Assembly (NCBI GenBank): GCA_020849475.1
Contig: JADLGE010000071.1
Coordinates: forward strand, 18,753 to 82,752
DNA from: Gammaproteobacteria bacterium
Lineage (GTDB): Bacteria; Pseudomonadota; Gammaproteobacteria; Ga0077536
DNA length: 64,000 nt
Direction of reading: 5' to 3'
Shown here in pieces: positions 31,607-59,853 of the stretch. A program made the position numbers and the translations under genes. Below the pieces are notes generated by a model. That model saw nothing but the letters and a program-made list of their open reading frames with translations, had not been told where the DNA came from and did not search any database. Positions within the stretch are counted from its first letter, which is position 1. Each line of letters starts with the position of its first letter.

Positions 31607-31690
31607 TGTAGGTGCGATTTCAATCGCACATTCAGGGCGCGGCTGGGTGTCGGTGGGGCAGTTTTAATGTGCGAATGAATTCGCAGCTAC
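31607..31690. repeat. REP-like element (unit B: gtgcgatttcaatcgcac hairpin and aatgtgcgaatgaattcgcag hairpin)
   Basis: Read directly; overlaps sthA stop. Confidence 0.8.
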
Positions 31691-37210: not shown

Positions 37211-37317
37211 AATTGAATGTCAGACTCAAGTCTGACCCACAAAATCAGCGACCTTCTTCCTGTCGGTCAGACTTGAGTCTGACATTGAGTCGCTTGCATG
37301 TGCGAATGAATTCACAC
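37211..37317. repeat. REP-like element, inverted pair of unit A hairpins plus unit B (gcatgtgcgaatgaattcacacct)
   Basis: aatgtcagac-tcaa-gtctgac ... gtcagac-ttga-gtctgacatt read directly. Confidence 0.85.
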
Positions 37318-52706: not shown

Positions 52707-53675
52707 ATGGCGCAGGACAGCATCCAACTCGACAGCCAGGGGCGCCTGAAGCACTTCCTGACCACCGAGCATCTGCCTCGCAGCCTGCTCACCGCCATCC
52801 TCGACAATGCCGAACGCTTCACCGTGGTCGGCGACAGGGCGGTCAAGAAAGTGCCTTTGCTGCGCGGCAAGACCGTCGTCAACCTGTTCTTCGAGCCGAG
52901 CACGCGCACCCGCACGACTTTCGAACTGGCGGCCAAGCGCCTGTCGGCCGACGTCATGAATCTCAACATCGAGGCCAGCGCCGCCAAGAAGGGCGAGTCG
53001 CTGGCCGACACCCTGCGCACCCTCGAAGCGATGCAGACCGACATGTTCGTGGTGCGTCATCATGAATCGGGCGCGCCGGAATTCATCGCGCGCCAGGTCG
53101 GACCCGAGGTCAGCGTCATCAATGCCGGCGACGGTCGCCATGCGCACCCGACCCAGGCCATGCTCGACATGTTCACCATCCGCCGCTACAAGCGCGATTT
53201 CACCCAGTTGAAAGTGGCCATCGTCGGCGATGTCGCCCATTCGCGCGTGGCACGCTCCGAAATCCATGCATTGAAGACCCTCGGCGTGCCGGAGATTCGC
53301 GTGGTCGGGCCCAAGACCCTGCTGCCGCGCGGCATCGAGGCGCTGGGCGTCGACGTGCATCATTCCCTCGAGACCGGTCTCGCAGGCGTCGACGTGGTGA
53401 TGATGCTGCGCCTGCAACAGGAGCGCATGCAGAGTGCCTTGCTGCCTAGCGGCCATGAATACTTCCACACCTTTGGCCTGACGCCGGCGCGTTTGAAGCG
53501 CGCCAAGCCCGACGCCATCGTCATGCACCCCGGCCCCATCAACCGCGGCGTCGAAATCGATTCGGCGGTGGCGGACGGCAAGCAGTCGGTGATCCTGCAG
53601 CAAGTCACCCACGGCATCGCGGTGCGCATGGCGGTGATGTCGATGGCGATGGGCACCGCCGCCCAGGCCTCATGA
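52707..53675 (+). CDS. pyrB: Aspartate carbamoyltransferase catalytic subunit
   Basis: STRTR carbamoyl-phosphate motif, HPTQ, HPGP motifs. Confidence 0.93.
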
Positions 53676-53685
53676 AATTCCAAGC

Positions 53686-54966
53686 ATGAAGATTACGATC
53701 AGTGGCGGTCGGGTCATCGACCCGGTCAACCAGCGCGACGAAGTCGTCGATGTGTTCATCGACGGCGACACCATCATCGGCCTCGGCCGCACGCCCGCCG
53801 GCTTCAAGCCGGCACGCGTCATCGACGCGACGGGCGCCATCGTGTGCCCGGGCTTCACCGAAGTCGGCGCGCGCCTGCGCGAACCTGGCGCCGAGCACAA
53901 AGCCACCATCGTCAGCGAACTCGAAGCAGCAGCAGCATCCGGCTTCACCACCGTGTGCTGCATGCCCGACACCAATCCGGTCATCGACACGCCGGCGGTG
54001 GTGGAACTCGTCAACCAGCGCGCGCGCGGCGTGCGCGGCGCGCGGGTCCGTTGCATCGGCGCCTTGACCCAGGATCTCGGCGGCTCGGTGCTGGCCGAAA
54101 TGGCGGCGCTGAAGGACATCGGCTGCGTGGGCGTGGCCAACGCCGGCCATGCGCTGCGCGACAGCAATGTCTTGAAGAACGCCCTCGCCTATGCGGCGAC
54201 GCTCGACATGACGGTGTTCCTCGATGCCGAAGACCCGTGGTTGGCGGCGCAGGGCTGTATGCACGAGGGCGCGGTCAGCACCCGTCTCGGCCTGCCCGGC
54301 ATTCCGGCCGCGGCCGAACTCATCGGCCTCGGGCGCGACCTGGTGCTGCTCGAAGACAGCGGCGCACGCGCCCACTTCCGCACTCTGACCTGTGGCCGCT
54401 CCATCAAGTACGTCAACAACGCACGCAAGACCGGCCTCGAGGTCAGCGCCAGCGTCGGCATCTCACACCTCGTGTTGACCGACGAAGACATCACGCGCTT
54501 CGACGGCCTGTTTCATGTGCGCCCGCCGCTGCGCACGCGGCGCGATCGCGCGCGCCTCATCCGCGGGCTCGCCGAGGGCCAGGTCGAAGTGCTGTCGGCC
54601 CATCATGAACCCCATGACGCCGACGCCAAGGCCGGCCCCTTCGGCGCCACCGCGCCCGGCATCTCGACCTTCGACAGCTTTCTGCCGTCCATGCTGCAGC
54701 TGGTCGAAGCCGGCCATCTCGATCTCATGCGCGCCATCGATGCCGCGGCCGTGCAGCCGGCACGGGTGATTGGCAACGCGTCGGCCAGCCTCGGCGTCGA
54801 CGCGCTGGCCGACATCTGCATCTTTTCGCCGGGCGAGCTCTGGACCTTGAGCGCCGACACCATGATGAGCAGCGGCAAGAACACGCCTCTGCTCGGGCGC
54901 AGCATGAAAGGCCGCGTGCTGGCGACCCTGGTCGGCGGTCGCATCGTCTTCGAACGGAAGGCCTGA
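53686..54966 (+). CDS. pyrC': Dihydroorotase-like protein, probably non-catalytic (PyrC')
   Basis: DHOase fold, but the N-terminal metal-binding HxH position reads PGFTEVGARLREPG (no His pair). Confidence 0.85.
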   Translation: MKITISGGRVIDPVNQRDEVVDVFIDGDTIIGLGRTPAGFKPARVIDATGAIVCPGFTEVGARLREPGAEHKATIVSELEAAAASGFTTVCCMPDTNPVIDTPAVVELVNQRARGVRGARVRCIGALTQDLGGSVLAEMAALKDIGCVGVANAGHALRDSNVLKNALAYAATLDMTVFLDAEDPWLAAQGCMHEGAVSTRLGLPGIPAAAELIGLGRDLVLLEDSGARAHFRTLTCGRSIKYVNNARKTGLEVSASVGISHLVLTDEDITRFDGLFHVRPPLRTRRDRARLIRGLAEGQVEVLSAHHEPHDADAKAGPFGATAPGISTFDSFLPSMLQLVEAGHLDLMRAIDAAAVQPARVIGNASASLGVDALADICIFSPGELWTLSADTMMSSGKNTPLLGRSMKGRVLATLVGGRIVFERKA

Positions 54967-54967
54967 G

Positions 54968-55858
54968 ATGGGTGACGCGGCCAATATCGCCCGTCCGCAC
55001 CGCGGCACGATAGGGCTCACCGACGCGAAGATAATCGCCGTCGAACACTTCGAAGGGGCGCAGCATTATCTGCGTCTCGACTGTCCTGGCATCGCCGCGC
55101 GCGCCCTGCCCGGCAGCTTCGTGCATCTTAAATGCGACAACGAACTGCCGATGCGGCGGCCAATGTCGGTGATGCGGGTATCGGCCCAGGACGGCTGGCT
55201 GGACGTTCTCTACAAGGCCCACGGCCACGGCAGCGGTCTGCTCGCGACACGCGTGGTCGGTGAGACTTTGAGCGTGATGGGCCCCATCGGCCAGCCGTTC
55301 AAATTGCGCGACTACCGGCCGCGCCCCCTGCTGATTGGGGGCGGCGTCGGCATGCCGCCGATGCTGTTCCTGGCCGAACATCTGCGCGCCACCGCGAAGC
55401 AGGTGCAGCCCTTGGTGCTGCTCGGCTCCGAAGTGCCGTTCCCATTCAGCGCACGCCCCTCGACCATCATGGTGCCCGGCGTGCCGCCTCAGGTGATCGC
55501 GGCCATGCCGCTGCTGGAGGACTGGCATATTGCCTCACGGCTCGCGAGCCTCGCTGGTTTTGCCGGCTGCTTTGAGGGTTATGTGACGGATCTCGCGCGT
55601 GAGTGGCTGACTACCAGCGGCGTGGCGCGTGATGACGTCGAGATCTTCGCCTGCGGTCCGACGCCCATGCTGCGCGCCGTGCAGCGACTCGCGGCAGAGC
55701 TCGCGCTGCCCTGTCAGATCTCGCTCGAGGAATACATGGCCTGCGCGGTCGGCGGCTGCGCCGGCTGCACAGTCAAGGTCGAGACCGCCAACGGGCCGGC
55801 CATGAAGCGCGTGTGCGTGGACGGACCGGTGTTCGAAGCGTCGACAGTCGTAATTTGA
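54968..55858 (+). CDS. PyrK-like FAD/NAD(P)-binding oxidoreductase with C-terminal 2Fe-2S cluster
   Basis: FNR-like module (RRPMSV, GGGVGMPP) plus C-terminal CxxxxCxxC...C (CAVGGCAGC...C). Confidence 0.72.
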   Translation: MGDAANIARPHRGTIGLTDAKIIAVEHFEGAQHYLRLDCPGIAARALPGSFVHLKCDNELPMRRPMSVMRVSAQDGWLDVLYKAHGHGSGLLATRVVGETLSVMGPIGQPFKLRDYRPRPLLIGGGVGMPPMLFLAEHLRATAKQVQPLVLLGSEVPFPFSARPSTIMVPGVPPQVIAAMPLLEDWHIASRLASLAGFAGCFEGYVTDLAREWLTTSGVARDDVEIFACGPTPMLRAVQRLAAELALPCQISLEEYMACAVGGCAGCTVKVETANGPAMKRVCVDGPVFEASTVVI

Positions 55859-55891
55859 AGGGCTGCTGGCCTGAAACATCCACGCGCGCCT

Positions 55892-56024
55892 TTGAATGCC
55901 AGGCTGAAGCCTGCCCCACAAAGCGCCCTCGTCGACTGTTGAAACCCATTGTGGGTCAGACTTCAGTCTGACATTCGCATTGATTGGCGCGCCTGCGAAT
56001 GTGCGAATGAATTCGCACCTACAA
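55892..56024. repeat. REP-like composite element (unit A x2 plus unit B aatgtgcgaatgaattcgcacct)
   Basis: ttgaatgccaggctgaagcctgcccca ... tgtgggtcagacttcagtctgacattc ... gtgcgaatgaattcgcac. Confidence 0.85.
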
Positions 56025-56408
56025 ATTCTTCAGCCCCTTCGCCACCAGCGCCTGTTCAATCTGTTCGCGCTCGAAGCCTAAGAAGGTTTCGCCGCGCAGC
56101 ATGAGGATCGGCACCACCTTGTGCGCCTGCTCGGCAAAGCGACGCCTGCCCTCGCTGTCGGTCTCGACGTCGTACTCGCAATACTTGACGTTCTCGCCCG
56201 TGAGATAGCGCCGCGCCTGGCGGCAATAGCCGCACCAGGACGCGCTCAGCATCACCAGCGTGTCAGTGTCGGGGGTGAGTTCGTGACCGCAGCGTATCGG
56301 TGCTGGCGAGCGATTACTTACCATCTGAATCATGGCCCACAGGCCTATCACCACGACCAGCGCATAGGTCGGCAGGTTGTTGCGCGATGCTTTGCCAGGC
56401 TCAGCCAC
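56019..56408 (-). CDS. Membrane-anchored glutaredoxin-like (thioredoxin-fold) protein
   Basis: GTG start overlapping ATL stop; TM helix LPTYALVVVIGLWAMIQMV then SWCGYCRQA redox motif; alternative ATG starts at 56336/56327. Confidence 0.6.
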   Translation of the reverse strand: MAEPGKASRNNLPTYALVVVIGLWAMIQMVSNRSPAPIRCGHELTPDTDTLVMLSASWCGYCRQARRYLTGENVKYCEYDVETDSEGRRRFAEQAHKVVPILMLRGETFLGFEREQIEQALVAKGLKNL

Positions 56409-56730
56409 CGTAGTCCCACTCGTAACGCGTGAGGTCGATGCGCCCGAACGCGTCGAAGGCCACGCCTTCCAGCGCCAGGCGGTCGTATTGTTCGTTCGGC
56501 GCGTCACCGTCACCACGCGGACTGACGCCGCCTTTGACGTTGACCACCCGGTGCCAGGGCACGTCGCTGCCGGTCTTCAACGCGGCCAGGGCGTAGCCGA
56601 CCTGGCGCGCGCCGCTCGGTCCTTCGATGTGGGCCAGCGCCGCGACCTGCTTGTAGGTGGCGACGCGGCCGACCGGGATGGCGCTGACCACGGCCCACAC
56701 CCGCGCATTGCGACCCATGGCCTCACTCAT
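56401..56730 (-). CDS. Alkyltransferase-like protein (ATL; MGMT-fold DNA-binding, YbaZ-like)
   Basis: Active-site position reads PWHRVVN (Trp in place of Cys); C-terminus IDLTRYEWDY matches YbaZ recalled from memory; start at internal ATG 56730. Confidence 0.75.
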   Translation of the reverse strand: MSEAMGRNARVWAVVSAIPVGRVATYKQVAALAHIEGPSGARQVGYALAALKTGSDVPWHRVVNVKGGVSPRGDGDAPNEQYDRLALEGVAFDAFGRIDLTRYEWDYGG

Positions 56731-56752
56731 TGCTGCGCACGTGCCCGGCGCT

Positions 56753-57142
56753 TCAGCACTGCACATCCTTGTCGACCCGCGGCGGGTCGGACAATTCCAC
56801 GCGCACACCATGATGGGCCGCGCCGCGTGGCTTCAGACACATGAGCACGGTGCGCTGCGCGACCCAGGTCAGGCCTATCTGGCGACCTGAGAATGGCGTG
56901 CCGTCGTTGGCGAGCTCGGTGCTCACCACCGGTGCGCCGGCCGCCATGCCGCGCGGCACGAGATAGAGATGGATTTGATCGGCGCCGTCGCTGCCGCGGG
57001 CCGCGACCCGCGTCACGCGCAGCAGGTAATCGCCGTCAGGCGAGGCGAATTCACTCAAGGTTTCTTCCGGCGCGTCGCCGCAAGCGCAGAGCAGGGCCAG
57101 CAGTGCGGCGCCCATGCCCCACCGCTGCGGCCGTCGTTTCAT
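56753..57142 (-). CDS. Putative lipoprotein/secreted hypothetical protein
   Basis: Signal peptide with LLALLCACG. Confidence 0.5.
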   Translation of the reverse strand: MKRRPQRWGMGAALLALLCACGDAPEETLSEFASPDGDYLLRVTRVAARGSDGADQIHLYLVPRGMAAGAPVVSTELANDGTPFSGRQIGLTWVAQRTVLMCLKPRGAAHHGVRVELSDPPRVDKDVQC

Positions 57143-57405
57143 GGTTGTTCGTCGAGGGTCTTGGCGCGCGCGGCCTGGTAATCCTGGTAGCGACTGCGAT
57201 CAGGATGTTGCGAGTCGGCGCACTGGCTGGCGCGGGCCTGGGCGTCGCGCTGGTGGGCGCCGGCCTGCTGGCAGGCGTAGTTGTCGCCAACGTCATAGAA
57301 CAGCTGCTGCCAGCTTGCGGTGCTGCAGCCGCCGAGGCCGGTCAGCATCGCGACCAGGCACAGCCGTCGCAACGGACTTGATCTCACGAAATGCTCAGCG
57401 CGCAC
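57139..57405 (-). CDS. Small putative lipoprotein
   Basis: 88 aa, LTGLGGCS lipobox-like signal. Confidence 0.5.
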   Translation of the reverse strand: MRAEHFVRSSPLRRLCLVAMLTGLGGCSTASWQQLFYDVGDNYACQQAGAHQRDAQARASQCADSQHPDRSRYQDYQAARAKTLDEQP

Positions 57406-57781
57406 GCTCGTGACGCGCGTCGAGAAAATCGACCCACGCTTCCCAGCGCTTGGTGTCGGATGGAAACTTGGGATGATCGAAACGGGCGATCACTACGTGT
57501 TCCGGTCCGGCGCGGTAGGCGATGGCGGCGACGAAGATCAAGCCATCCTTGTAGGCCTGACGCTGTTCGTCCGGCACGCTCTTGTGCGGCGTGTCGGACC
57601 ACAGACCATCCGCGCGCAGCGGCGCTATCCAGTTTTCAGCGTGATTGGCAGTGGTGCCGCGCAGCGTGCAGAAATACAGGCTGCCGTTCAATTTGTCGCC
57701 CGGGTCAAAAGCCAGGTCGTAGTTGTCGACGATGACGGCGTTGCTGAACTCGGCCGGCACGCTGTGCATTTGCGCGCTCAT
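57395..57781 (-). CDS. Hypothetical protein
   Basis: ATG 57781 8 nt after GGGAG; 128 aa; no recognised domain. Confidence 0.45.
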   Translation of the reverse strand: MSAQMHSVPAEFSNAVIVDNYDLAFDPGDKLNGSLYFCTLRGTTANHAENWIAPLRADGLWSDTPHKSVPDEQRQAYKDGLIFVAAIAYRAGPEHVVIARFDHPKFPSDTKRWEAWVDFLDARHERAR

Positions 57782-57876
57782 GAATGATGCTCCCGTGGGA
57801 CGATGCCGCGGCACCAGAGCCGCGGCGCAGACGGTGCACGCTAACCCAGGCGCAGCACCCGATCAATCCTGAAAGT

Positions 57877-58170
57877 TCAGGGTTTCAACTCCACTTCGAC
57901 GAACGACAAGAAATGATCGTTGGCGTTGATGACATTGTGCTCGACGCCGACATTGCGCGAATAGGACACGCCGACCTTGAGCTCGGCGCGCTTCTCGCCA
58001 TCCGGTGTTTCAAGCAGCAAGGTGCCATCGGTGAGCGGCACCACCACGTAATCATGGCCGTGCACATGCCAGCCGGTCTCGGCGCCGGGCGCAAAGCGCC
58101 ACTCGGTGACGATCACGCGCTCGTTCTCGAATTGTTTGACGCCTTCGGCCTGGGGACGGGACGGACTCAT
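57877..58170 (-). CDS. Cupin domain protein
   Basis: 97 aa, GWHVHGHDYVVVPLTDGTL cupin motif. Confidence 0.7.
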   Translation of the reverse strand: MSPSRPQAEGVKQFENERVIVTEWRFAPGAETGWHVHGHDYVVVPLTDGTLLLETPDGEKRAELKVGVSYSRNVGVEHNVINANDHFLSFVEVELKP

Positions 58171-58194
58171 GGGGACTCCTTGGGGTGAATGGGT

Positions 58195-58674
58195 TCAAGC
58201 GAGGGCCGTGGCATCGCTCCATGCCAGCGCCGGAAAACGTTCCACGCCTTCGGCAAGAAATTCGCCGAAGGCATCCATGCACACGCAATGACGGCGCGTG
58301 ATGCGCCAGCCGGCCGGCGTGAGCGCGAAAGTATCGTGGTAGGAGCCGCGCACTTCCCAGCGCGTCAAAGTGCCTTCCGGCAGGCGCTGCAAATGGGTGG
58401 CGATGACACGCGCGCTGGCGTGAGCGCTCTTGCCGGTGATTTCAATCATGGGCGGGGCGATCACATGGTTGGTCCAGTAGCACAAATCCAGAAACTGGCT
58501 GAAAGCCGCCACCGCACCGGCGCCGGTGCAATCGAAGACATGCCCCGACACTTCGTAGTGCAGCGCCGCGCTCGGCGTGAACACCTGCTCGAGATATTCG
58601 AAGCGCTTTTCGTCGATGGCGCGCGCATAGATGGCGTAGGTGTGCGAGATGGCGAGGTGAGCGTCGAGATCCAT
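58195..58674 (-). CDS. NTF2-like (SnoaL-like) protein
   Basis: 159 aa; fold call from composition/length. Confidence 0.55.
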   Translation of the reverse strand: MDLDAHLAISHTYAIYARAIDEKRFEYLEQVFTPSAALHYEVSGHVFDCTGAGAVAAFSQFLDLCYWTNHVIAPPMIEITGKSAHASARVIATHLQRLPEGTLTRWEVRGSYHDTFALTPAGWRITRRHCVCMDAFGEFLAEGVERFPALAWSDATALA

Positions 58675-58743
58675 GGTTCCCCCGGCTGGGCGACACCGCG
58701 TGCCGCGTCGGCGTCAGTGTAGGCGCGATGCGCGGGCGCGTCT

Positions 58744-59388
58744 TTAAAACTGCGCGGGACGCGGCAGCGCCAGCCACGCCTGCACCGACGGCCTTTGCCA
58801 TTGTGCACGCGCAAAGGCCGCCACCGCCGACGGCGTGGCGTCGCCGCTGTTCAACAGCCGCTGCAGCATCAGCGCGAGATCGGTATCGGCTATCGACCAC
58901 TCGTCGAACAACTGCGTGGCGCCGACCGGCAATATCGCTTCGACGAACGCACACAGGCGCTCGGCGTCACCATGCGCGGCATCGGTCAGTGGCGTGGTGA
59001 GCGGCGCGCCGAACACCGCGGTGGTCGGACGCGCCTCGCGCAATGCGCCGAGATCGCTGCGCAGCCAGGCCTGAATCTGCCGCGCACGGGCGCGCGCCTG
59101 ACGGCCCTGCGGATAGAGCGCGCGATAGCCCGGCGCCGGCAGCAGCTCTTCGAGATATTCGGCAATTGCCGATGACTCGCTGAGATGAAAATCAGCGTGA
59201 CTCAGCGTCGGCACGCGGCCGGTCAGGGAGTCGCGCAGGTAGTCCGGCGCGCGATGCGCGGCGGCGCGCAGGTCGACCAGGCGAGTTGTGAACGGCACGC
59301 CCTTTTCGGTCAGTGCAACGAAGGCCGACATGGCATAGGGACTGACGTGGCGGGCATCGACATACAAGACGAAAGGCGAGTCGGACAT
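58744..59388 (-). CDS. Glutathione S-transferase family protein
   Basis: 214 aa, GST N-terminal thioredoxin-like region (SPYAMSAFVALTEKGVPF). Confidence 0.75.
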   Translation of the reverse strand: MSDSPFVLYVDARHVSPYAMSAFVALTEKGVPFTTRLVDLRAAAHRAPDYLRDSLTGRVPTLSHADFHLSESSAIAEYLEELLPAPGYRALYPQGRQARARARQIQAWLRSDLGALREARPTTAVFGAPLTTPLTDAAHGDAERLCAFVEAILPVGATQLFDEWSIADTDLALMLQRLLNSGDATPSAVAAFARAQWQRPSVQAWLALPRPAQF

Positions 59389-59445
59389 GACGGCGGGCGC
59401 TCCGGAGACAATGACAATGGGCGGCGGCGCGCGGGCCGTGCGCGC

Positions 59446-59853
59446 TCAGGGTAGAACGGTCGTGCAGTTGGATGTGCAGCGCGCAATCTGGCCGCGCAGG
59501 CGGTTGTAGAGTCCGTCGCAGACGCCACGCTTCGATTCACACAGCACCCGCGTGACCAAGGTCGGGTTGCCGTTCTTGAACACGATATCTCGACGCACGA
59601 CGGTCGGATAGGCCGGATGGCCCTTGGGCGCGAAGGTCCAGGTGGTGAAATCATCGCCGGCTTCGTCGGTGATGATGGTCCAACCGCTGTGGTCGGCGCT
59701 CTGCACATCGGGCTTGGCGGCGAGGGCCTTGCGCGCGGCGCTGACCGACGCGTAGCCGATACCGCTGACGGTGGTCTGCGCGTGCGCGGCATCGGGCATG
59801 AAGCCCACGGCGAGCACGAGCAGCAGAAAGTGTTGGCGAAATTGACGGCGCAT
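59446..59853 (-). CDS. Secreted hypothetical protein
   Basis: Signal peptide LLLVLAVGFMPDAAHA; 4 Cys in C-terminal part. Confidence 0.5.
   Translation of the reverse strand: MRRQFRQHFLLLVLAVGFMPDAAHAQTTVSGIGYASVSAARKALAAKPDVQSADHSGWTIITDEAGDDFTTWTFAPKGHPAYPTVVRRDIVFKNGNPTLVTRVLCESKRGVCDGLYNRLRGQIARCTSNCTTVLP

What the first reader, a model, noticed from the sequence alone, without database searches (positions are those of the whole stretch)
56019..57781. Alkyltransferase-like (ATL) protein overlapping a membrane-anchored glutaredoxin-like gene, with two lipoproteins
The MGMT-fold protein has PWHRV instead of PCHRV. That is the hallmark of ATL proteins, which flag O6-alkylguanine for nucleotide excision repair instead of repairing it. 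Its stop overlaps the GTG start of a gene encoding a single-TM protein with a CGYC thioredoxin-fold motif. Two small putative lipoproteins and a hypothetical protein precede them on the same strand with overlapping or short junctions. I have not seen this coupling of a DNA-damage sensor with a membrane redox protein described.
Basis: partly seen in the sequence, partly recalled or inferred. Interest (0 to 1): 0.6.

Follow-up and report, generated by a model that had tools for sequence, protein, structure and literature searches.

The report
Conserved ATL plus membrane redoxin operon
A DNA-damage sensor gene (ATL) is fused by overlapping stop and start codons to a gene for a small membrane-anchored thiol redox protein; this pairing recurs across a clade of uncultured Gammaproteobacteria and I found no description of it, but nothing shows that the two proteins work on each other.

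Summary
On the minus strand lie five genes: a hypothetical gene (57781-57395), two lipoprotein genes (57405-57139 and 57142-56753), an ATL gene (56730-56401, PWHRV) and a 129-aa single-TM redoxin gene (56408-56019, CGYC). The ATL stop and the redoxin GTG overlap by 8 nt.

The ATL looks canonical. Its best solved relatives are vpAtl and Atl1, and the Tyr, the Arg finger and the Trp are kept.

The redoxin is a minimal NrdH/YruB-type fold rather than a classical glutaredoxin. It has four invariant Cys and charge flanks that favour a periplasm-facing domain.

The adjacency is not unique to this genome. An ATL sits directly upstream of this redoxin in 25 of 29 species-level genomes carrying it, in 4 of 4 loci chosen by ATL similarity, and in three unrelated genomic contexts, usually with a 4-23 nt overlap. 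It is clade-specific: 8 of 68 sampled metagenomic ATLs have it, none below 55% identity, and E. coli ybaZ lacks it. The lipoproteins and the hypothetical gene are dispensable neighbours.

Direct biochemical cooperation is unlikely. The compartments probably differ, the ATL has no conserved Cys, and each gene occurs without the other. Co-expression under electrophile stress is the best, but inferred, reading.

The parts
56401..56730 (-). ATL gene (alkyltransferase-like protein, 109 aa; alternative upstream ATG at 56766)
   Evidence: PF01035 at 1.5e-21. Best solved relatives are vpAtl 2KIF (1e-15) and Atl1 3GVA (2e-14), with Tyr, the Arg finger, Trp and Arg69 aligned. 51% identical to YbaZ. Homologues of 109 aa start MS.. 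at the same position.
56545..56559 (-). PWHRV motif (Trp replaces the alkyl-acceptor Cys of PCHRV)
   Evidence: Six-frame motif scan: this is the only P[CW][HQ]R[VI] in the 64-kb window. The motif is invariant in the paired ATLs.
56401..56408 (-). 8-nt stop/start overlap GTGGCTGA (ATL TGA, redoxin GTG)
   Evidence: Read directly from the sequence. The same -4, -8, -11 or -14 geometry is seen in most related loci.
56019..56408 (-). Membrane-anchored NrdH/YruB-type redoxin gene (129 aa, 'Grx-like')
56316..56375 (-). N-terminal transmembrane/signal-anchor helix (residues 12-31)
   Evidence: AF2 helix at residues 12-31. A hydrophobic core is conserved in all homologues. The N-flank is more positively charged than the C-flank.
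56223..56234 (-). CGYC active-site motif (Cys59, Cys62); further invariant Cys40 and Cys77
   Evidence: Alignment A1 has C40, C59, C62 and C77 invariant in 27 sequences. Full-length family members carry exactly 4 Cys, apart from two with 5.
56753..57142 (-). Lipoprotein 2 gene (129 aa), accessory
   Evidence: A lipobox (LL[ATV]AC-type) and two further Cys (an internal one and the C-terminal residue) are conserved in homologues. No Pfam or NCBIfam hit. Absent from many ATL-redoxin loci.
57139..57405 (-). Lipoprotein 1 gene (88 aa from GTG 57405; alternative GTG 57387), accessory
   Evidence: A lipobox (GLGGC) and two conserved Cys in the mature part. No family hit. Absent from many loci.
57395..57781 (-). 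Conserved hypothetical gene (128 aa), accessory
55859..56018 (.). Convergent intergenic region with palindromic repeats (REP-like), between the redoxin stop and the pyrK-like stop
   Evidence: The palindrome TGCGAATGAATTCGCA at 56002-56017 recurs at 31670 and 37301, with variants elsewhere: 9 matches against 1.1 expected. No canonical intrinsic terminator was found.
57877..59388 (-). Upstream same-strand neighbours (context only): cupin 57877-58170, SnoaL-like 58195-58674, GST 58744-59388
   Evidence: Pfam hits. Syntenic in close relatives.

Best explanation
The conserved core is a two-gene, translationally coupled unit.

**Gene 1** is a canonical alkyltransferase-like protein. It is a cytoplasmic, catalytically inert MGMT-fold protein that flips O6-alkylguanine into its pocket and hands the lesion to nucleotide excision repair. 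This mechanism comes from the established biology of Atl1, YbaZ and TTHA1564.

**Gene 2** is a bitopic membrane protein. It has an Arg-rich N-terminus, one signal-anchor helix and a minimal NrdH/YruB-type CxxC redoxin domain. That domain most likely faces the periplasm. It probably carries a structural Cys40-Cys77 disulfide and acts as a thiol-disulfide oxidoreductase.

The overlapping stop and start tie the two genes to one mRNA and to coupled translation. Selection has kept that link through several genome rearrangements in one clade of uncultured Gammaproteobacteria.

The most likely reason is co-regulation as two arms of one response to alkylating or electrophilic stress, rather than physical cooperation. 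One arm flags DNA adducts in the cytoplasm. The other repairs or protects thiols at the envelope.

- **Shown:** the identity of both proteins, the overlap, and the conservation and clade specificity of the pair.
- **Inferred:** the topology, the disulfide, the shared stress signal, and the absence of direct interaction.

The two lipoproteins and the 128-aa hypothetical gene are lineage-specific passengers of the same transcription unit.
For: **ATL identity:**

**Redoxin identity and fold:**

**Overlap:**

**Conservation of the pair**
- An ATL with PWHRV lies directly upstream of the redoxin in 25 of 29 GTDB species loci found with the redoxin as query.
- A PF00462 gene lies directly downstream in 4 of 4 loci chosen by ATL similarity.
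- The start codon overlaps the ATL 3' end by 4-23 nt in most pairs.

**The pair persists in unrelated contexts**
- cupin / hypothetical / lipoprotein or GFA / ATL-redoxin, opposite the pyr genes.
- CN-hydrolase / MscL / alpha-beta hydrolase / ATL-redoxin, opposite an MMPL gene.
- purH / purD and a divergent TPR gene, then ATL-redoxin-PmbA.
- A reduced locus in which everything between the pilT/U-like genes and the ATL is gone.

**Clade specificity:** 8 of 68 assessable metagenomic ATLs have the redoxin, all with ATL identity of at least 58%, and 0 of 37 below 55%. E. coli ybaZ stands alone.

**Topology**
- The N-flank averages 2.9 K+R and the C-flank 1.8; net charge is +1.9 against +0.5.
- The N-flank is the more positive in 21 of 35 sequences and the less positive in 4 of 35.
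- Four Cys are invariant.

**Electrophile theme of the neighbours:** GST, SnoaL and cupin in the window, GFA in relatives, and glyoxalase I beside the ATL-less redoxins.
Against: - No expression data exist, and no promoter or terminator could be predicted.
- The 'shared electrophile stress' link rests only on neighbour annotations, which vary between contexts.
- The topology rests on a moderate charge bias. In the window protein itself the two flanks are equal, at 2 K+R each.
- All carriers belong to one poorly sampled clade of metagenome-assembled genomes, so phylogenetic inertia is not fully excluded.
Confidence: 0.5

Rival explanations
1. Neutral or weakly selected hitch-hiking. The two small genes have unrelated functions. 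They stay adjacent only because they were fused into one transcription unit in the clade's ancestor and are hard to separate once the start and stop overlap.
For: - All carriers are related uncultured Gammaproteobacteria.
- The same redoxin family occurs without an ATL in sister lineages L027, L031, L032 and L033.
- ATLs elsewhere lack the redoxin.
- No shared chemistry is evident, because the ATL has no conserved Cys.
Against: - The pair survived at least three changes of genomic context and the loss of all neighbouring genes.
- Redoxin identity falls to about 35% while the overlap geometry is kept.
- Unselected pairs are normally broken over such divergence.
Confidence: 0.25
2. Envelope module. 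The periplasm-facing redoxin is a dedicated oxidase or isomerase for the two co-encoded lipoproteins, and the ATL is a passenger.
For: - Both lipoproteins keep a lipobox plus exactly two further conserved Cys, so each has one potential disulfide.
- They share the same tightly packed operon.
- CGYC is also the active-site motif of E. coli DsbC (my own knowledge).
Against: - The ATL-redoxin pair occurs without either lipoprotein in many loci: L002, L004, L014, L022, L026, L028-L030 and L038.
- The ATL is the constant neighbour, not the lipoproteins.
Confidence: 0.15
3. Direct partnership. The redoxin domain faces the cytoplasm and acts with the ATL. It might tether the ATL to the membrane, regulate it, or supply a thiol that resolves or accepts the alkyl lesion (a 'split' alkyltransferase).
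For: - Tight translational coupling usually accompanies stoichiometric complexes.
- The pair is the only constant feature of the locus.
- The closest solved folds are all cytoplasmic redoxins.
Against: - The positive-inside bias places the N-terminus in the cytoplasm and the domain outside.
- An extra invariant Cys pair is typical of exported proteins.
- The ATL has no conserved Cys for thiol exchange; the window ATL has none at all.
- In ATLs the pocket is filled by Trp, and a Trp-to-Cys change does not restore transfer in E. coli ATL (PMC10779285).
- Each gene exists alone elsewhere.
Confidence: 0.07

Closest known systems
Alkyltransferase-like proteins: S. pombe Atl1, E. coli YbaZ (eATL), V. 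parahaemolyticus vpAtl, T. thermophilus TTHA1564
   Same: - About 110 aa, consisting of the MGMT C-terminal domain only.
- PWHRV motif, with the Tyr, the Arg finger and Arg69 conserved.
- 51% identical to YbaZ.
   Different: It is translationally coupled to a membrane redoxin gene. E. coli ybaZ has no same-strand protein-coding neighbour on either side: ybaY ends convergently with it and ffs is transcribed divergently. 60 of 68 sampled ATLs have no such partner.
NrdH / YruB / BC3987 / mycoredoxin-type small redoxins
   Same: - Minimal beta-alpha-beta-alpha-beta-beta-alpha fold.
- CxxC at the start of helix 1, a cis-Pro (VVP), and a GF..E motif after strand 4.
   Different: - It has an N-terminal signal-anchor helix and a linker carrying an extra invariant Cys, with a fourth Cys in strand 2.
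- The motif is CGYC rather than CVQC.
- It is not next to nrdEF.
- It scores far below the NCBIfam cut-offs.
- The domain is probably periplasmic.
Classical glutaredoxins (Grx1-3, CPYC, glutathione-dependent)
   Same: It matches PF00462 and has a dithiol CxxC.
   Different: It has no CPYC and no GG-x-DD glutathione-binding signature. TIGR02181 and TIGR02180 scores are far below their cut-offs. Use of glutathione is unknown.
Membrane-anchored or periplasmic thioredoxin-fold oxidoreductases (DsbC, CcmG/DsbE, TlpA, ResA)
   Same: The predicted location and a single anchor resemble CcmG and TlpA. The CGYC motif equals that of E. coli DsbC (my own knowledge).

Membership tests
Alkyltransferase-like (ATL) proteins | Consists of the MGMT C-terminal DNA-binding domain only, with no N-terminal AGT domain | tested here: met
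   PF01035 covers residues 8-89 of the 108 queried (the full protein is 109 aa). There is no other domain.
Alkyltransferase-like (ATL) proteins | Acceptor Cys of PCHRV replaced, usually by Trp (PWHRV) | tested here: met
   PWHRV aligns with the PWHRV of Atl1 and with the PCHRV of human and E. coli AGT. The motif is invariant in the paired ATLs.
Alkyltransferase-like (ATL) proteins | Helix-turn-helix with an Arg finger and a base-flipping Tyr (Atl1 Tyr25, Arg39; pocket Arg69) | tested here: met
   The alignment to 3GVA shows Y, R and R at the equivalent positions. T24, Y25, R41 and W58 are invariant in alignment A3.
Alkyltransferase-like (ATL) proteins | Binds O6-alkylguanine without transferring the alkyl group, and recruits UvrA/UvrC | not testable with these tools
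   This needs biochemistry. It is inferred from family membership only (PMC10779285).
Classical glutathione-dependent glutaredoxin | CPYC-type active site and glutathione-binding motifs; score above the family cut-off | tested here: not met
   The motif is CGYC. TIGR02181 scores 28.9 bits against a cut-off of 90, and TIGR02180 scores 16.6 against 87. The motif after strand 4 is GFERE rather than GG.DD.
NrdH-redoxin | CVQC and WSGFRP motifs, and linkage to class Ib ribonucleotide reductase genes | tested here: not met
   [not shown]
YruB-family glutaredoxin-like proteins (TIGR02196) | Score above the family cut-off | tested here: not met
   This is the best NCBIfam hit, but it scores 55.5 bits against a cut-off of 88.55. 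It is the closest family by sequence and fold, but the protein is not a member by the curated threshold.
Thioredoxin-fold CxxC oxidoreductase (superfamily) | Thioredoxin/glutaredoxin fold with CxxC at the N-terminus of helix 1 and a cis-Pro loop | tested here: met
   [not shown]
Bacterial lipoproteins (the two small upstream genes) | Signal peptide ending in a lipobox, [LVI][ASTVI][GAS]C | tested here: met
   GLGGC and LLCAC in the window. LL[ATV]AC, ALAGC and similar boxes are conserved in homologues. No signal-peptide predictor was available.

The most novel reading that the evidence does not exclude
The ATL and the membrane redoxin form a functional two-component system. The redoxin's nucleophilic Cys, facing the cytoplasm, would resolve, regulate or accept alkyl groups from ATL-bound lesions (a 'split' alkyltransferase). 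Alternatively it would tether lesion-flagging to the membrane. Either would be a repair route for O6-alkylguanine that does not go through classical AGT or through NER hand-off alone.
Probability: 0.05. Interest if true: 0.85.

Novelty: new variant of a known kind. Interest (0 to 1): 0.4.

Why it matters
ATLs are understood as stand-alone adaptors between base damage and excision repair, and no dedicated partner gene is described in the ATL review I consulted or in my literature searches. A partner gene kept under selection in a whole clade gives a concrete lead. It points either to how ATL expression is wired into a wider electrophile or alkylation stress response, or, less likely, to an accessory factor. 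It also defines a small, uncharacterised family of membrane-anchored NrdH/YruB-type redoxins with four invariant cysteines. Few such minimal redoxins are known outside the cytoplasm. The practical value is modest, because the organisms are uncultured and the link is so far only genomic.

Tried and rejected
- **Promoter and terminator scan**, 55700-59600: nothing found, so the operon limits remain inferred from spacing.
- **Pfam (to E = 10) and NCBIfam** on the hypothetical gene and both lipoproteins: no hit.
- **Tat export idea:** a twin-Arg precedes the helix in only about 22 of 35 family members, and not in the window protein (N-flanks). I rejected it as a family feature.
- **NrdH/ribonucleotide-reductase link:** rejected. 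No nrdEF neighbours are present, the motifs are wrong, and the protein has a TM anchor.
- **Four-Cys metal or Fe-S site:** could not be tested without model coordinates. Cys77 lies at the start of strand 2, far from the CxxC, so a Cys40-Cys77 disulfide is the more likely reading. This is inference.
- **Redox control of the ATL by the redoxin:** rejected. Paired ATLs have no conserved Cys, and 8 of the 37 sequences listed, the window's included, have none.
- **Other thiol partners downstream of unpaired ATLs:** only one case, a DUF393/DCC-like ORF in L111, which is consistent with chance.
- **Literature searches** for ATL with glutaredoxin, thioredoxin or gene context: nothing relevant. Two candidate papers were unrelated.
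- **Second MGMT or ATL in the window:** none found.
Full report
**1. What is in the sequence**

Positions 56019-57781 carry five genes on the minus strand.

| Gene | Coordinates | Length |
|---|---|---|
| Hypothetical | 57781-57395 | 128 aa |
| Lipoprotein 1 | GTG 57405-57139 | 88 aa |
| Lipoprotein 2 | 57142-56753 | 129 aa |
| MGMT-fold (ATL) | 56730-56401 | 109 aa |
| Single-TM CxxC protein | GTG 56408-56019 | 129 aa |

I read the junctions directly.
- Hypothetical/lipoprotein 1: 11-nt overlap, or a 7-nt gap if the second GTG at 57387 is the start.
- Lipoprotein 1/lipoprotein 2: ATGA, a 4-nt overlap.
- Lipoprotein 2/ATL: 22-nt gap.
- ATL/redoxin: GTGGCTGA, an 8-nt overlap.

Downstream, the cluster converges on a pyrB / dihydroorotase-like / PyrK-like operon that ends at 55858. 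Upstream on the same strand lie cupin, SnoaL-like and GST genes. The only correction is that the ATL most likely starts at ATG 56730, as in its 109-aa homologues.

**2. The ATL**

- The protein matches PF01035 only (E 1.5e-21).
- Its best solved relatives are the two structurally characterised ATLs: vpAtl 2KIF (1e-15) and Atl1 3GVA (2e-14). True alkyltransferases score about 1e-4.
- In the Atl1 alignment, PWHRV matches PWHRV. Atl1 Tyr25, Arg39 (the Arg finger) and Arg69 are all conserved.
- It is 51% identical to E. coli YbaZ.
- It meets every sequence-level criterion of the ATL family.
- Its activity is inferred from the family (review PMC10779285): lesion binding without transfer, then hand-off to UvrA/UvrC.

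**3. The redoxin**

- The protein matches PF00462 (2.3e-10). It falls below every NCBIfam cut-off; the best hit is the YruB family, at 55.5 bits against a cut-off of 88.55.
- AlphaFold2 with a 27-sequence alignment gives pLDDT 84.8. It predicts a helix at residues 12-31, a short strand at 39-40 and 44, and then a minimal beta-alpha-beta-alpha-beta-beta-alpha fold.
- The family is small, with 49 clusters among 5.8 billion proteins.
- It has four invariant cysteines: Cys40 in the linker, Cys59 and Cys62 (CGYC), and Cys77 in strand 2. The cis-Pro is also invariant.
- Across 35 members the N-terminal flank of the helix carries more K+R than the C-terminal flank (2.9 against 1.8). Net charge is +1.9 against +0.5. 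The N-flank is the more positive in 21 sequences and the less positive in 4.
- By the positive-inside rule this favours an N-in, C-out orientation, so the redox domain would face the periplasm. The extra Cys pair fits a structural disulfide in an exported protein.
- This topology is an inference of moderate strength. In the window protein itself the two flanks are equal.

**4. Is the adjacency conserved?**

Yes.

- **Redoxin as query.** A scan of one genome per GTDB species returned 29 loci, all metagenome-assembled genomes of uncultured Gammaproteobacteria. In 25 of them a PWHRV-type ATL lies immediately upstream.
- **ATL as query.** Four loci chosen only by ATL similarity (61-79% identity) all have a PF00462 gene directly downstream.
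- **Junction geometry.** In most pairs the redoxin start codon overlaps the ATL 3' end by 4, 8, 11, 14 nt or a little more. Homologues have ATG or GTG at the position of the window's GTG.
- **Context A.** cupin / hypothetical / lipoproteins or a GFA-family gene / ATL-redoxin, facing the pyr genes.
- **Context B.** carbon-nitrogen hydrolase / MscL / alpha-beta hydrolase / ATL-redoxin, facing an MMPL transporter.
- **Context C.** purH / purD and a divergent TPR gene, then ATL-redoxin-PmbA.
- **Reduced locus.** In L038 everything between the pilT/U-like genes and the ATL has been lost, and only the pair remains.

The lipoproteins and the hypothetical gene are thus accessory.

**5. How specific is it?**

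- In a metagenomic sample of 80 ATL loci, 68 had enough downstream sequence to assess.
- Eight of these carry the redoxin. All eight are among the ten ATLs most similar to the window's, at 58% identity or more. None of the 37 ATLs below 55% identity has it.
- Downstream genes of the unpaired ATLs are heterogeneous.
- E. coli ybaZ stands alone, between ybaY and ffs.
- Conversely, four divergent members of the redoxin family lack an ATL. They have CTFC or CPYC motifs and come from low-GC Thiotrichaceae and Thioalkalispiraceae-type genomes. The two Thiotrichaceae-type loci lie next to MlaC-like genes, with glyoxalase I and RNase D-like genes a few hundred bases downstream in L027 and further off in L032 and L033.

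Each gene can therefore function without the other, and the pairing is a trait of one clade.

**6. How it most likely works**

What is shown is a conserved bicistronic unit with translational-coupling geometry, which implies co-transcription and linked translation.

Direct thiol chemistry between the two proteins is unlikely, for four reasons.
- The paired ATLs have no conserved cysteine, and the window ATL has none at all.
- The redox domain is probably on the other side of the membrane.
- The ATL pocket is occupied by Trp, and restoring Cys does not restore transfer even in E. coli ATL.
- Each gene occurs alone in other lineages.

I therefore favour co-regulation of two independent defences against alkylating or electrophilic agents. 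This fits the recurring thiol and electrophile theme of the neighbours: GST, GFA, glyoxalase I, cupin and SnoaL. That link is inference only.

Three rivals remain.
- Neutral hitch-hiking of a fused gene pair.
- A periplasmic oxidoreductase serving the two Cys-pair lipoproteins. This is contradicted by the pair's persistence without them.
- A true ATL-redoxin partnership, which has low probability.

**7. Novelty**

The ATL is a new member of a known family. The redoxin is a new membrane-anchored subfamily of a known fold. I found no description of the conserved ATL-redoxin operon in the literature searched. I rate it a new variant of a known kind, of moderate interest. It is a real, conserved and clade-restricted association, but it has no demonstrated mechanistic link and occurs in uncultured organisms.

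**8. Dead ends**

- No promoter or terminator could be predicted.
- The hypothetical gene and the lipoproteins have no family assignment.
- The hypothetical protein has a confident model but no known fold neighbour.

Noticed in passing
window 56002-56017; also 31670-31685, 37301-37316, variants at 31613, 40854, 42295: The palindrome TGCGAATGAATTCGCA recurs in the window, with 9 matches at up to 3 mismatches against 1.1 expected. One copy sits in the convergent intergenic region just after the redoxin stop. It looks like a REP-type repeat, or a terminator hairpin without a T-run.
   Followed up: partly
[not shown]
   Followed up: partly
window 56753-57405 (-): Both small lipoproteins keep exactly two further cysteines in the mature part across homologues, so each has one potential disulfide. 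Lipoprotein 2 always ends in a C-terminal Cys.
   Followed up: partly
L049, L058, L059, L068, L071 and others (metagenome ATL loci); P0145, P0150, P0163: A sizeable group of ATL homologues has PWQRV instead of PWHRV, with the His after the Trp replaced by Gln. One of them (L049) is paired with the redoxin.
   Followed up: no
L111:2469-3300: An unpaired ATL (60% identity) is followed 53 nt downstream by a DUF393/DCC-like ORF with a GACGFC motif, a putative thiol-disulfide oxidoreductase. This is a second, unrelated ATL-thiol-protein adjacency. It is a single case and may be chance.
   Followed up: no
L027:709-2093, L032:5926-8504, L033:5914-8038: ATL-less members of the membrane redoxin family (CTFC or CPYC motifs) lie in low-GC Thiotrichaceae-type genomes. 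L027 has an MlaC-family gene upstream (Pfam hit), with a similar ORF upstream in L032. Glyoxalase I (Pfam hit in L027) lies about 0.6 kb downstream there. RNase D-like ORFs, recognised by eye only, follow in L027 and L032, and a glyoxalase-like ORF lies further off in L033.
   Followed up: partly
L006, L028 (records CAMCBY010000014.1, CAMATU010000224.1): These two metagenome-assembled genome records are titled 'Klebsiella pneumoniae'. They carry the gene content and synteny of the uncultured gammaproteobacterial clade, so the label appears to be wrong.
   Followed up: no
window 52707-55858 (+): pyrB and a dihydroorotase-like gene are followed by a PyrK-like protein (DHODB Fe-S binding domain), with no adjacent pyrD-type catalytic subunit. 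The arrangement is conserved in relatives. In many of them a Methyltransf_4-type (TrmB-like) methyltransferase gene, on the pyr strand, lies between the PyrK-like gene and the redoxin gene.
   Followed up: no
L037:3207-4333; L026, L028-L030: An alpha/beta-hydrolase gene overlaps the ATL start by 4 nt in L037, and a similar gene sits directly upstream of the ATL in the unrelated MscL context. It may be a second recurrent partner of the pair.
   Followed up: no
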